Position numbers: made by a program. This document shows, piece by piece, positions 15,001 to 60,000 of a stretch of DNA of 64,000 nucleotides. Positions within the stretch are counted from its first letter, which is position 1; the number at the start of each line of letters is the position of its first letter. Source of the DNA: Perna viridis. Lineage: Eukaryota. The stretch is from assembly GCA_037379345.1 (NCBI GenBank), contig CM074512.1, positions 69,957,597 to 70,021,596 of the forward strand, read 5' to 3'.

Positions 15001-18000
15001 TATTACCTAATTTTGAATGCATGTTACCAGTATAGTAATCGAAAAAAAATTAATCTGAGAAGTAACATGTAATTGAGTCAATCTAGAAGAGATGTTCATC
15101 ACTAAAAATGGAAGAATCGAAGGATTTTTGTTTTGCTTAAGTCTTTTAATTATGATTTGTTGTAATTATTACGGGAAAATAACATCCACAATTTTGTACA
15201 TTGTCATTGTCGACGTTACAGGCATAAATAAGATTCAGCAGATGGCAATAAACGTTCATTGAAGTTAGGAATTGTTCAATATTCTTTCGATTAGTTCAAT
15301 GTATTAACCATAAAACTAAATACCCATACGAGGTTTGGAAATTAAACATCGATTCTTAAGGAGTGGTACTTGTAAATTTGAAAAATGAACTCCCTCATAC
15401 ATACTATTGTGATGTCACATATTGCATGTTGACACTTTCCAATGCCCATTGAAGAACATTTGATATGTTGATTGATTTTAAGTCAAAAATTGAAAACATG
15501 TACATGTTGGGTCCTTTGGGAGAGAAAGCTGTCTGTTTTTTTTTCCTGTCAAATTTGAATTAAGCCATGGATATTGTCTAGATGATTGGAAGTTGCTTCT
15601 CTGATTGATATTTTGGCAATGACCACAGACTTGATGGAAACAGGATTTCGTGTCAAAGATTCAACAACCTTTGAAACTATGCACAATTGTTTAATACCAT
15701 GAACTGCAGGTTAAGGTCAATTTTCAGCAAAATAAAAAATATAGTTTTGAGTTGGGCCATTTTGGACATTTTGCCATCCCCCTTTTTTCAGTATTGCATG
15801 GTGGGGTGTTCCATCAATGCCCTTTGATCTACTGTGAAGATGAGAATTATATGTTACATGTAATGATACATGTACATTGAATAATATTTTTATTTGAAGG
15901 TTGATATATGGAGTATAATGATACACTGATGTTTTTTTTTATTTGCAGGCTGATATATGGAGTGTAATGATACATTGATGTTTATTTAAATTGCATGCTG
16001 ATATATGGAGTGTAATGATATATTGATGTTTTTATTTGCAGGCTGATACATGGTGTGTATCTATGGCTGGTATAGGAAGTGTAATGACACATTGATGTTT
16101 TTTTATTTGAAGGCTGATCTATGGAGTGTAATAATACATTGGTGTTATTTATTTGCAGGCTGATATATTTTGTGTAATTATACAGTGATGTTTTTTATTT
16201 GCAGGCTGATATATGGAGCTTAGGTATTACGGCCATAGAACTGGCCAAAGGTGAACCACCAAACTCAGAACTTCATCCGATGCGGGTATTATTTCTCATT
16301 CCAAAAAACCCTCCTCCCCAGCTGTCGGGCAACTACTCAAGGTTTTTTAAAGAATTTGTAGAGCTTTGTTTGAATAAGGAGCCTGCAAATGTAAGTTATT
16401 ATTATGTTTAGAATGCTCTATAATTATGCTTCTTGATTGAAAGCCAATTTGAGGAAAGTTTTCCTGTATAGCAGGAAATTTTAACAGAATATATATCTTA
16501 AATGAGAATATCAGAATTGATTTTGCAGAATACTGTCAATTTGGGAATTACCATGCTATTTCTGTTGTAAAAAAAATGGGTTGAAAATGCAGTACATGAA
16601 AGTAAACATCACATTTTGGAATTTTTTATGAATAAAGCAGGAGTTGAATCAATATTGCAAAAAATTGAAATTACTTATTTTGACACCAACGACTAAATAG
16701 TAATTGTAAATGATTATGAATTAATCCTTTTCATTCAAACTACATGTATTTCTGTGGGATTTCAGTGAATTTCTTAGTTATGTTGTGTATAGAGGAAACT
16801 GTTTGAACAGACATGCTGTTGATGCCCCATACTATAAAGATGTAGAGGGTACAATCTTTTTACTGGTCATCAGCCAGTTTGTATGTCAGACCATTAATTT
16901 GTTATCACTCTATTGTCTCTTTGCCTTTTTACTTGTCTGATTTCCCACCAACTTAGATACACTGCTGGTAACCGTAGAAGCTTTGATGGAATTGATTGCC
17001 ACATAAATTCCTCGAGGCAGATCACATGCTAGGACTGAGCAGTGAAAGAAATTAGCAGTAGACCTATGAACCAAGTCTATGTAAAATCAAACAGGTCTAT
17101 GATGAAACTGGCTCAAGTTGCTTTAAAATGTACAGCGCTGTCTATGTAAAATTATGATGGGTCTATGTTGACAATAAATTCAGTTTCTAACACTGGACTG
17201 AGTGTCCAGGGGTTGAGGTGCCACATGCTAGGACTAACTGTCCAGAGGTTGTGGGACCACATGTTAGGACTGAGTGTCCCGGGGTTGTGGGACCGCATGA
17301 TAGAACTGAGTGACTAGGAATTGTGGGACCACATGATAGAATTGAGTGTGCAGGGGTTGTGGGACCACATGTTAGGACTGAGTGTCAGGAATTGTGGGAC
17401 CACATGATAGAATTGAGTGTGCAGGGGTTGTGGGACCACATGTTAGGACTTAATGTGCAGGGGTTGTGGGAACACATGTTAGGACTGAGTGTCCAGGAAT
17501 TGTGGGAACATGCTCACTGTTATTTAATATTCAATACTTCAATATTTTAAGTACAATGTACAATTCCTGTGTGAAAGTGTCAAATCCAAATTTTATTTTT
17601 CTTTTTCACAGAGACCAAGTGCCAAAGACTTATTAAAACATAGATTTATACAGAGAGCTAGGAAGACAACATATCTACAAGATTTAATAGACCGATACAA
17701 ACGATGGAAGTCAGAAAAACCCAACAATGGCGATTCTGATAGTGATGAAAGCGAGCCGTAGGTTTAGTTTTAGTAGTAGTAACAGATATTGATCAAGGAA
17801 CTTGCAACACCATAAAGAGCTGTAAACGCAGTAGAAAAAAAATATGAATGCTTGATGAATTGTTAGGTACTATAAGGCAATTATAAGTATCTAGAGGAAA
17901 ATAGTTAGTAATTTGTTACAATTTCTTCATAAAAATATCATAAGGTGAGAATTTCCTGAAGTCCTGTGTTTTTCCTCAAATCATCAATTTCAAGTGATCT

Positions 18001-57000: not shown

Positions 57001-60000
57001 ACAAGAGGTTCCCAGGAGCCTGAATCGCTCACCTGTTGAATTTTGCCTTACAAAGGCAATAAATTAAACAAGTTGTCCAACAATTTTGACTCAAGAAGTC
57101 TTTGGTAGGACTATTACAAGATCTTTTCAACAATGGAAAGTTTCTTTTAATCTACCATAGTTTTCAAGATATTGACTGAAAACTATTAAAAAAAAAGTCA
57201 TTTTTCCCCTTTCCAGGGCAATAACTCTTACAAGGAGTCTAATGACTTTTATAGTCTTAATAATATGGATCATTTCAGCTATTGAAAGAATTTGGATAAA
57301 CCTAACGGTTTTGGAGATATACGTGAAAAACTACTATCTGACCCCTATGTTCTATTTCTAGTAACGGCAGCCATGTTTTTTTCAACGAATCACAAATCCC
57401 CACATCAGTTCTATGCAGGATACCCCAAGGAACATTCATATCAAGTTTGGTTTCAATTGGTCAAGTACTGTCAGAGGAGAAGATTTTTGAAAGAAATAAC
57501 ATTAAAAATAACATAAATCGTTAAAAAAAGGCAATATCACCAACATGACTCAACATTTTAAAACCAAACTTTGAACAGAGATAGACCTCATCATGCTGAA
57601 CACTTTTACCCTGCCAGAATTCAGTTAAACCTAACGTTTAGGAGATATATGTGAAAAAATACTGTCTGACCCCTATGTTCTATTTTTAGTAATGGCGGCC
57701 ATGTTTTTTGACGAATCAAAAATCCCCACACCAGTTCTATGCAGGATACCCCAAGGAACATTCATACCAAGTTTGGTTCTAATTAGTCAAGCAGTTTCAG
57801 AGGAGAAGAGTTTTGTATAATTCCTAACGACGATGACGGATGCCAAGTGATGGCAATAGCTCACATGGCCTTTGGCTAGGTGAGCTAAAAATCAGAACTA
57901 GTTCACAGTCAGCATCGCACTGAAATAAAAGACTAGATCAAAGACTGACCTGAGATTATATCGAAGACCCTAGAGAATTTTAAGACTGACCTAAGATAAT
58001 ATTGAAGACCCTGGAGAATTTTAAGACTGACCTAAGATAATACTGAAGACCCTGGAGAATTTTAAGACTGACCCAGTGTAGGAAACCACCGCTCGCTAGC
58101 TCGCCAAATACCAGTAGATGTGTAATTTGGTGAGTTCTCATTAGCTTACACTCTTCAATTTGACGACTGTCATTTGATTGGAGAGTTCCAAGGAAAGTTA
58201 ACCAGCCAACCGGTTATTTATTAAAAATATGTTTCCTACATTTTAAGAAGTTTAGCTTGAATATGTTAAGTGAATTTTGGCATGATATGCACAATTTTAT
58301 TGACTTGTAAAGCATTGTTTACAATCTGCCATTTAAATTTCCGGTAAACAGGATGTGCCAAAACCTTCACGACGGTTCAGATCTCATATTAGTATTCAAA
58401 TGAAATTATCTTGGTAATTTATGATATGTTACCTTGCAAATTAGTTGTTTATTGTCACAATAAAAATGAAAAAGAAGCAAATGATAAACATTTTCTTGTT
58501 TCATAATGATGAATCTGCAGAAACATTTTTTAAATATGAGTTCAGAAATGAGTACTTATTCTGTTACTGTAAAGTAAATGAAAAACTTCAAAGGGAGGGA
58601 ATATTCGAAAATGGAAAAGTTTTTGATAAATTTAAAAACAAATGAAAAGATAGTAGAAGAAAGAAAAGGAAAGGCAGAAGATAGTCAAATCCAAGAGAAA
58701 ACAAATGGTAGTACAGAAAAAAACCCAAATATGTGAAGAGCATAGACATTTTTTGAATGAATGGAAATAATTTGGCTAGTTGAATTTATATTTGGCTAGC
58801 AAGGTCAATATTCCACTAGCCAGAATGGCAAGTTGGGAAAAAAAATGGTTTCCCACACTGGTGACCTATGAGATAATATGGAAGACCCTAAAGAATTTTA
58901 AGACTGACCTGAGATAAAATTGAAGATCTTGGAGAATTTTAAGGCTGACCTGAGATAATATTGAAGATCTTGGAGAATTTTAAGACTGACCTGAGATAAT
59001 ATTGAAGATCTTGGAGAATTTTTTTCTTTTCCTTTGTTAGGTCTCCTTGTGCCCTAAAAGCTGAAATGAGGGAAGAGTAAGCTTCCAATTCCATCCTCCG
59101 TAACATCCTTTTGGACTCATCCTTAGACATATCAAGTAGTAATGGCCACATTTTCCCCTGAAAATATAAGACAAATTTATACCTACAAAATTTGCCAGCT
59201 GCAATTTTTTTGTTGCTGAATTCAGAAATTGGAGCCAACATAGGTACAAAAAAAAATGTGATTTAAAAAAAAAAAATAAAATATAACAAGGTCTGCTGAT
59301 GATTATACTGATAAATTCATCAAAATAACCATCACTCATGACAAGATCTAAAACTCATAGTCACTTTTGCATAGAAAAGGGAGCAACAGATGCATCATTG
59401 TATAACCTCTATAAAAATAGTAAATACTTACAGAGATCACCAAAAGGTCTTCCATAAGTGTAAACACACCTTCAAGTTTGTTCTGATAGGCCCCGACAAG
59501 AAAGGTAAAAACAAATCCAACAGAATGATGACAATCCTTTTTAATAAACTAAAAAGTCAAATAACGAAACGAAAGACAGATCAGTGAACCAAGATAGACA
59601 TTAGAGCGAAATCATTCATTTCTAACCAAGCACCATGCGGCAAGCACAACAAACAGCTTGGAAATAGTGAACAAATATTAGAAATCAACAAAAAATCTCC
59701 AAAAACATGCTTCATTCTAAAGTATCTGTTGAAAATTTTGAATTGGATCTTGAGCTTGATATCACAAAGCAATAACCTGTGCTGTTATAAGCAAAGCTGG
59801 GCAAAAAATTTACTTGAAGCTTTTGAAACAAAATAAAATGTAGAAAAAAATGGGTTCAACAAAAAATATTAACATTTATGATAGCCGGACCTGTGCAAGA
59901 ATATTTATGAACCTTGAATATAGACATATTTTAAGAGCATTATATTTAATTAAGTATAGACTTAGACTCAAAATAAAATGTAGCAAAATTATATAGTACT

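What the first reader, a model, noticed from the sequence alone, without database searches (positions are those of the whole stretch)
15860..59021. Recurrent pattern: minisatellites seeded on exon-intron junctions that build decoy splice-site arrays
Seen: three unrelated tandem arrays in two genes have units of 41-46 bp that straddle a splice junction (kinase exon 5 acceptor, EMSY exon 1 donor, donor of a candidate EMSY exon at 48812). Each expands only into the intron, so the exon stays intact. Three of about ten minisatellites here sit on junctions, which are a small share of the 64 kb. Inference: either a junction-biased duplication process or tolerated/selected decoy arrays whose copy number could tune productive versus NMD splicing. 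The arrays could also be raw material for intron sliding or intron gain.
Basis: partly seen in the sequence, partly recalled or inferred. Interest (0 to 1): 0.72.

Follow-up and report, generated by a model that had tools for sequence, protein, structure and literature searches.

The report
Minisatellites duplicating splice junctions ("mirages")
Two introns in neighbouring animal genes carry short tandem repeats whose unit is a copy of the real splice junction, a curiosity already described in lancelet and human genes, and this window gives no good evidence that it is commoner than chance or has a function.

Summary
Two of the three claimed cases are real and exact. The third is unproven.

- **Array 1 (15868-16218, +):** it repeats the last 32 nt of an intron plus the first 14 nt of a GCK-III/STE20 kinase exon. 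The true acceptor (16205) is the last copy.
- **Array 2 (59022-58862, -):** it repeats the last 32 nt of the first coding exon of EMSY plus 9 intron nt. The true donor (58991) is the first copy. It continues at 58072-57941 and was split by a 789-bp inverted-repeat element.
- **Array 3 (48858-47925, -):** it carries GTAAGT in 19 units, but its "exon" is not needed. The flanking exons join in frame through a canonical acceptor, and the candidate scores below 63 of 64 true-exon windows.

"Expands only into the intron" follows from the geometry of any tandem duplication across a junction.

Under a seed-based null, 0.3-1.2 junction arrays are expected here. P(>=2) is 0.04-0.33, before any look-elsewhere correction.

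The kind is already in print: amphioxus "mirages" (Adh3, globins, PGBD5) and human F7, CBS, IFI6, LMNB2, PDGF and ABCA7. Every decoy tested here would give a premature stop. Actual decoy use, copy-number variation and genome-wide enrichment could not be tested.

The parts
15868..16218 (+). Array 1: about 7.5 units of ~46 bp, each made of the 3' end of the intron (branch-like TTGAT, T-run, CAG) plus the first 14 nt of the kinase exon. The last unit is the authentic junction.
16205..16390 (+). GCK-III/STE20 kinase exon (ADIWSLG...). Its acceptor is the array's terminal copy.
   Evidence: STK24/STK25/MST4 chains, E=1.9e-29; 2xik_A residues 197-256; Pkinase
12112..12269 (+). Preceding kinase exon, ending in phase 0
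   Evidence: 2xik_A residues 145-196
58862..59022 (-). Array 2, proximal part: 4 units of 41 bp, each made of the last 32 nt of the exon plus 9 nt of intron (CAG|GTCAGT). The first unit is the authentic donor. Units 2-3 differ from it at 0-1 positions.
58991..59157 (-). EMSY first coding exon (ATG at 59151; ENT domain N-terminal part)
   Evidence: 1uz3_A, E=9.6e-18; PF03735 positions 1-40
56625..56699 (-). EMSY next exon (ENT domain continued); fixes the donor phase
58073..58861 (.). 789-bp non-coding element with 16-nt terminal inverted repeats, flanked by GTCA on both sides. It is inserted inside array 2.
   Evidence: pair I3, 94% complementary; subterminal pair I6; flanks read
57941..58072 (-). 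Array 2, distal part: 3.2 older units, 88-93% identical to the authentic unit, each with a GTCAGT donor-like site
47925..48858 (-). Array 3: 19 units of 45 bp (two of them 61 bp), each with GTAAGT, plus one diverged edge copy. Higher-order period ~421 nt. It lies wholly inside the intron 49358-47646.
48812..48894 (-). Its last ~43 nt are the diverged edge copy of array 3. Not supported as an exon.
49359..49487 (-). EMSY exon upstream of array 3; its donor is in phase 0
47480..47645 (-). EMSY exon downstream of array 3; canonical acceptor TTACAG|A in phase 0
19446..19609 (+). Near miss: a pyrimidine-rich 30/77-bp array ending 16 nt before the kinase acceptor at 19625. It does not include the junction.

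Best explanation
Arrays 1 and 2 are ordinary minisatellites whose founding duplication happened to include a splice junction. This structure is called a 'mirage' in amphioxus and is known from several human genes.

Inferred origin: slippage or unequal exchange duplicated a 41-46 bp segment. Such a duplication always leaves one intact junction next to the rest of the exon, so the gene survives as long as the spliceosome keeps using the exon-adjacent copy. The other copies become intron. The arrays then grew, homogenised and decayed like any minisatellite. In array 2, an older layer was split by a transposon, and a younger layer of near-identical copies formed next to the exon.

Inferred working: the exon-adjacent site is used. 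Occasional use of a decoy gives a transcript with a premature stop that is probably degraded. No dedicated function is needed.

Array 3 is most likely a purely intronic minisatellite whose unit happens to contain GTAAGT.
For: - Exact junction placement comes from residue-contiguous matches of neighbouring exons to solved human structures and to Pfam ENT.
- The unit contains both exon and intron sequence, and the authentic site is the terminal copy.
- The units are unique to their loci, so they are not transposon-borne.
- Array 2 has two layers. Copies 2-3 are 97.6-100% identical to the authentic unit. The distal copies are 87.8-92.7% identical and share their own variant. A TIR element with a 4-bp flanking repeat sits between unit 4 and unit 5.
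- Every decoy tested is non-productive. All 5 AG-bearing decoy acceptors give a stop within 9-17 codons. Decoy donor 2 shifts the frame onto stops in the next exon, and decoy donor 3 meets an in-frame stop.
- There is no excess over chance.
- Published precedents have the same anatomy and normal splicing. In F7 IVS7 only the most upstream of the identical donors is used (PMC1557585: abstract, introduction, discussion). Amphioxus globin and Adh3 mirages occur on both 5' and 3' boundaries, and RT-PCR is said to show regular splicing (PMC3087553: section 16).
- For array 3, the donor at 49359 (phase 0) and the acceptor at 47645 (phase 0) join in frame.
Against: - Two junction arrays among 11-20 arrays is on the high side of expectation (P as low as 0.04 under the strictest counts).
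- A further array stops 16 nt short of an acceptor.
- Array 3 has a phase-compatible open candidate exon, so a real local excess cannot be excluded.
- Most decoys keep their signals: 5 of 7 acceptor decoys keep AG, and all 3 donor decoys in array 2's proximal part keep GT. This could mean maintenance rather than youth.
- Which copy is actually spliced is inferred, not observed.
Confidence: 0.75

Rival explanations
1. A junction-biased duplication process: in this genome minisatellites are seeded preferentially at splice junctions, for instance by slippage in polypyrimidine tracts or by transcription/splicing-coupled breaks.
For: - Two proven cases in adjacent genes against 0.33-1.17 expected.
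- A third array abuts an acceptor's pyrimidine tract.
- T-run length varies between units of array 1.
Against: - P(>=2) is only 0.04-0.33, before correcting for the fact that the window was picked because it looked odd.
- Junctions are not more often part of a local repeat than random positions: 2 of 45 against 9.7%.
- Array 2 sits on a donor, which has no pyrimidine tract.
Confidence: 0.17
2. Selected decoy arrays: copy number tunes the share of productive versus NMD-targeted transcripts of the kinase and EMSY.
For: - All tested decoys give premature stops.
- Many decoys keep consensus signals.
- Human ABCA7 precedent: a 25-bp VNTR includes the exon 18 donor, one-unit retention gives a PTC transcript that rises with cycloheximide, and VNTR length is associated with lower expression (PMC5954066 passages).
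Against: - In ABCA7 the unit-retention isoform did not change with VNTR length (PMC5954066 passages).
- In F7 the pseudo-sites are silent (PMC1557585).
- Decoys here decay irregularly: CAT, AAG and a truncated unit in array 1, and a transposon inside array 2.
- No conservation data are available.
Confidence: 0.07
3. Array 3 does sit on a real, weakly used (cassette or poison) EMSY exon at 48894-48812, which would make it a third mirage.
For: - The 83-nt stretch is open in phase 0, starts after TTAG and ends at GAA|GTAAGT.
- Its length fits the frame if the next exon starts 2 nt later.
- Its 3' part is a diverged copy of the unit, the same layout as array 2.
Against: - It needs a GAG or AAG acceptor downstream, while a canonical TTACAG|A in the right phase exists for direct joining.
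- Its codon score of 0.029 is below 63 of 64 true-exon windows and is matched by 15% of open intronic windows.
- It has no Pfam match.
- The 'junction' unit at 48817 is repeated identically at 48396 inside the array.
- Diverged edge copies are usual in arrays.
Confidence: 0.15
4. Assembly artefact: the arrays or their copy numbers are produced by mis-assembly of repeats.
For: Not testable here. Copies 1-3 of array 2 are nearly identical, the kind of repeat whose number is easily misjudged.
Against: Units carry individual substitutions and indels, array 2 contains a transposon with its flanking repeat, and array 3 has an ordered higher-order pattern.
Confidence: 0.04

Closest known systems
[quoted passage not shown]
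   Same: - The tandem unit contains an exon end plus the adjoining intron end.
- Both 5' and 3' boundaries are affected.
- Many but not all units keep AG/GT.
- Units are 81-100% identical, with concerted evolution.
- They have been proposed as raw material for intron gain.
(PMC3087553 section 16; PMC3902484 passage.)
   Different: - Different genes (a GCK-III kinase and EMSY) in an unidentified organism.
- The units here are 41-46 bp, within the 10-72 bp given for Adh3 and shorter than the ~150-160 bp globin units.
- Splicing and length polymorphism were shown there and could not be tested here.
- The original paper (PMC117041) is not held, so I know it only through these two papers.
Human F7 IVS7 37-bp VNTR and the set listed with it (IFI6/6-16, CBS IVS13, LMNB2, PDGF intron 4)
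   Same: The first monomer spans the exon-intron boundary, so the authentic donor is followed by identical pseudo-donors. The most upstream one is used. This is exactly the layout of array 2 (PMC1557585 abstract, introduction, discussion).
   Different: Those are all donor-side and mammalian. In F7 only 4 exon nt are in the unit, against 32 here. In 6-16 and CBS two pseudo-sites are also used.
Human ABCA7 intron 18 25-bp VNTR
   Same: The VNTR includes the exon's donor. Use of the next unit's donor retains one unit, shifts the frame and gives a PTC/NMD transcript.
   Different: Length there affects exon 19 skipping and total expression, not the unit-retention isoform. It is GC-rich, with 12 or more units.
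Intron gain or sliding by tandem duplication (Rogers model; Drosophila near-intron pairs; human segmental-duplication paralogues)
   Same: Duplicated exon sequence carrying splice signals becomes intronic or shifts a boundary (PMC2891723 abstract; PMC2812944 abstract and passages; PMC3087553 section 16).
   Different: Here the intron already exists and its position is unchanged. No gain or slide is shown.

Membership tests
Mirage / junction-spanning minisatellite | Head-to-tail array of two or more units of minisatellite size | tested here: met
   array 1 has 46-49 bp units (3.3-3.7 copies per TRF row; 8 motif copies). Array 2 has 41 bp x 3.8 plus 3.2 copies. Array 3 has 45 bp x 18.4 copies.
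Mirage / junction-spanning minisatellite | The unit contains both exonic and intronic sequence of an authenticated splice junction | tested here: met
   Arrays 1 and 2: the junctions are fixed by residue-contiguous PDB matches of neighbouring exons and by Pfam ENT. The units hold 32+14 nt and 32+9 nt.
Mirage / junction-spanning minisatellite (array 3) | The unit contains an authenticated splice junction | tested here: inconclusive
   The candidate exon is phase-possible but not needed. Its codon score is low for an exon and it has no family match. No RNA or orthologues were available.
Mirage / junction-spanning minisatellite | The authentic junction is the terminal, exon-adjacent copy, and the other copies lie in the intron | tested here: met
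   All alternative copies give premature stops.
Mirage / junction-spanning minisatellite | Regular splicing is not disturbed (RT-PCR in the published cases) | not testable with these tools
   No transcript data.
Mirage / junction-spanning minisatellite | Length instability or polymorphism between haplotypes | not testable with these tools
   A single assembly only. The layered structure of array 2 implies past turnover.
Expression-tuning decoy VNTR (ABCA7-like) | A decoy-site isoform is observed, stabilised when NMD is blocked, and copy number correlates with expression or splicing | not testable with these tools
   Only the predicted premature stops could be computed.
Intron gain or sliding by tandem duplication | An intron at a new or shifted position relative to orthologues, flanked by duplicated exon sequence | not tested
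   No orthologous gene structures were available. The protein-level matches show no insertion or deletion at either junction, so no slide is visible.

The most novel reading that the evidence does not exclude
This genome carries a real genome-wide excess of 'mirage' minisatellites at splice junctions. That would mean a duplication process aimed at junctions (pyrimidine-tract slippage or splicing/transcription-coupled breakage) operating outside the few amphioxus and human genes where it has been noted. Recurrent re-duplication of the same junction, as in the two layers of array 2, would then supply decoy sites, NMD load and raw material for intron sliding or gain.
Probability: 0.15. Interest if true: 0.6.

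Novelty: new member of a known kind. Interest (0 to 1): 0.27.

Why it matters
On present evidence the finding is mainly a caution for annotation. Gene predictors and read aligners can pick a decoy copy, and copy number in such arrays is easily mis-assembled.

If a genome-wide excess were shown, these arrays would give natural series of identical competing splice sites, useful for studying splice-site choice as F7 was. They would also be a measurable source of NMD substrates and of intron-boundary change.

Tried and rejected
- **Transposon origin of the units:** rejected. No copies occur elsewhere in the window.
- **Inverted-repeat search:** seed 9 found nothing. Seed 7 found the 16-nt termini.
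- **Conservation of GTAAGT in array 3 as a sign of selection:** rejected as uninformative. Nearly all columns of the 17 aligned units are invariant and the array has a higher-order period (by eye).
- **The 160- and 135-aa open frames on the + strand through array 3:** the Pfam hits have 0 significant stretches or are repeat-driven. I take the frames as a by-product of a 45-nt (3 x 15) unit.
- **Position-based control:** kept only as an upper bound, because array growth inflates it. The seed-based null is the better one.
- **Rfam and tRNA scans:** nothing found.
- **Not used:** Genome contigs (bacteria and archaea only), structure prediction, complex prediction and the ESM Atlas, since none bears on the question.
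- The search for homologous proteins, the search of protein representatives, and the viral and metagenome contig collections. No orthologues of the middle of EMSY could therefore be obtained to test the candidate exon.
- **Supplements closed:** the mirage alignments and trees (Additional files 4-7 of PMC3087553) and the ABCA7 supplementary tables were not seen.
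Full report
**Setting.** The window is AT-rich (GC about 0.32 throughout) and has no N. It carries a GCK-III/STE20 kinase on the + strand and EMSY on the - strand. I do not take it for human: its exons resemble the human chains in the PDB but are not identical to them. The organism could not be identified, because no eukaryotic sequence collection was open. All protein searches were made exon by exon. 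The effects of alternative splice sites were worked out on contiguous genomic stretches and by phase arithmetic only.

**Array 1 (15868-16218, +).** TRF reports units of 46-49 bp.
- The exon-start motif occurs 8 times: seven decoys at 15900, 15949, 15997, 16042, 16066, 16113 and 16159, plus the authentic copy at 16205.
- Each full unit is the last 32 nt of the intron (a TTGAT branch-like motif, a T-run and CAG) plus the first 14 nt of the exon.
- The acceptor is fixed precisely. The preceding exon (12114-12269 in codons) matches PDB chain 2xik_A residues 145-196, and the exon starting at 16205 matches residues 197-256 (E = 2.7e-24 and 1.9e-29).
- Of the seven decoys, three keep CAG, two have AAG, one has CAT, and one is a truncated unit without a tract.

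**Array 2 (59022-58862 and 58072-57941, -).** The unit of 41 bp is the last 32 nt of the first coding exon of EMSY plus 9 nt of intron, CAG|GTCAGT.
- The exon (ATG at 59151, last base 58991) matches 1uz3_A residues 6-55, which extrapolates to residue 58 at its last full codon. One split codon follows, and the next exon (56699-56625) starts at residue 60.
- Pfam ENT positions 1-40 and 43-66 agree. The authentic donor is therefore the first unit.
- Units 2 and 3 are 100% and 97.6% identical to the authentic unit. A fourth unit is diverged.
- Three more units, 87.8-92.7% identical, lie about 800 bp further into the intron.
- Between unit 4 and unit 5 lies a 789-bp element (58073-58861) with 16-nt terminal inverted repeats (pair I3) and GTCA on both flanks (read). 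Removing it restores a continuous unit boundary.
- The array was therefore once continuous. It has an older layer, whose units share their own variant, and a younger layer next to the exon.

**Array 3 (48858-47925, -).** There are nineteen units of 45 bp (two of them 61 bp). Seventeen were found by pattern, and two more were read. Each carries GTAAGT. There is also a diverged edge copy and a higher-order period of about 421 nt: the unit at 48817 recurs identically at 48396.
- All three minus-strand frames of the unit contain stops.
But it fits only if the next exon began at a GAG or AAG acceptor two to five bases inside it.
- Without it, the donor at 49359 (phase 0) joins the canonical acceptor TTACAG|A at 47645 (phase 0) in frame. 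Both exons translate without stops.
- The candidate's codon score (0.029 per codon) is below 63 of 64 windows of true exons. The training set includes those exons, which flatters them. The score is reached by 15% of 2675 open intronic windows.
- It has no family match.
- I conclude that array 3 is most likely purely intronic. A rarely used poison exon is not excluded.

**Is it more than chance?** TRF gives 44 rows, which I collapse to 21 loci covering 5583 bp, or 8.7% of the window.
- The fair null asks how often the founding unit of an array would include a junction. That is the number of arrays x junctions x (unit-1) / length.
- I used 11 arrays (>=3 copies, period >=20) or 20 arrays (all), 40-70 junctions and 50-64 kb. 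The expectation is then 0.33-1.17, P(>=2) is 0.04-0.33 and P(>=3) is 0.003-0.11.
- No correction was made for the window having been picked because it looked unusual.
- As a second control I asked which of 45 confident junctions have a copy of their +/-20 nt within 400 nt. Two of 45 do (>=28 of 40 matches), against 9.7% of 1500 random positions. That control is inflated by array growth and serves only as an upper bound.
- One further array (19446-19609) ends 16 nt before the acceptor at 19625 without including it.
- Together these results neither show nor exclude a junction bias.

**What the decoys would do.**
- Each of the five decoy acceptors that keep AG would add 46-305 nt and meet a stop within 9-17 codons.
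- The second donor of array 2 adds 41 nt and shifts the next exon into a frame with stops.
- The third donor meets an in-frame stop.
- Reading on from the candidate exon of array 3 meets TAA at once.
- All such products would be premature-stop transcripts. That they are degraded by NMD is inference from general knowledge.

**'Expands only into the intron.'** This follows from geometry. Duplicating a segment that spans a junction always yields one intact junction next to the remaining exon, with the extra copies on the intron side. It says nothing about mechanism or selection.

**Known relatives.** The structure is in print.
[quoted passage not shown] They occur on both 5' and 3' boundaries. 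Many but not all units keep AG/GT, and splicing is apparently normal. They show length differences between haplotypes, and an explicit model for intron gain has been proposed (PMC3087553 section 16 read in full; PMC3902484 one passage). The original paper (PMC117041) is not held.
[quoted passage not shown] The paper shows that in F7 only the most upstream of the identical donors is used (abstract, introduction and discussion read).
- *Human ABCA7.* The intron 18 VNTR includes the exon 18 donor. Use of the next unit's donor retains 25 bp and gives a PTC transcript that rises with cycloheximide. That isoform did not vary with VNTR length (PMC5954066, passages).
- *Other.* Tandem repeats at exon-intron boundaries of human segmental-duplication paralogues, and Drosophila near-intron pairs, link such duplications to new introns (PMC2812944 abstract and passages; PMC2891723 abstract).
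- *Searches.* My searches turned up no genome-wide test of junction enrichment. That is a statement about those searches only.

**Verdict.** There are two new examples of a known kind, plus one doubtful one. The most likely account is neutral or mildly costly minisatellite turnover at sites that happened to include a junction. The exon-adjacent copy is spliced, and rare decoy products are removed. The added facts are the transposon-split, two-layer history of array 2 and the demotion of array 3.

Noticed in passing
58073-58861: A 789-bp non-coding element with 16-nt terminal inverted repeats and subterminal inverted repeats, flanked by GTCA on both sides. It is inserted inside the junction minisatellite of EMSY intron 1. 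No other copy occurs in the window.
   Followed up: partly
12562-13024; 57061-57891; 35096-35610: An interspersed repeat family, 69-92% identical between copies, inverted between the kinase intron and EMSY intron 1. One copy lies right next to the distal half of array 2.
   Followed up: no
1028-1206; 42582-42772; 60056-60294: A second interspersed repeat family (73-93% identical), with open frames that look alike.
   Followed up: no
38694-38858 (-): An exon encoding the C-terminal part of a bromodomain (PF00439, E=9.3e-08, above cut-off), on the same strand and downstream of the last EMSY pieces I modelled. Whether it is a separate gene or a fused tail was not resolved.
   Followed up: no
47850-48753 (+): Array 3 is open on the opposite strand for 160 and 135 codons (a 15-residue repeat). 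The Pfam hits are repeat-driven, with 0 significant stretches for most. I take this for a by-product of a unit of 45 = 3 x 15 nt.
   Followed up: partly
48817-47976: Array 3 has a higher-order period of about 421 nt. Two 61-nt units carrying a 16-nt internal duplication recur at 48817 and 48396.
   Followed up: partly
19446-19609: A pyrimidine-rich 30/77-bp array ends 16 nt upstream of the kinase acceptor at 19625. It is close enough to form part of the polypyrimidine/branch region but does not duplicate the junction.
   Followed up: yes
52264-51639 and 46563-44921 (-): My exon chain for EMSY does not close in phase across these two stretches. Small exons are probably missing from the model: open pieces lie at 45367-45528 and 45610-45843.
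   Followed up: no
40540-41133; 2796-3724: Two larger arrays unrelated to junctions: 142-160 bp x 3.8 copies, and an AT-rich 21/42-bp array of about 42 copies.
   Followed up: no
28994-29197 (+): The last kinase coding exon gives a marginal match to the PDCD10 dimerisation domain family (PF20929, 20.3 bits against a cut-off of 19.8). From recalled knowledge, not from a call, this fits a GCK-III kinase tail that pairs with PDCD10/CCM3.
   Followed up: no
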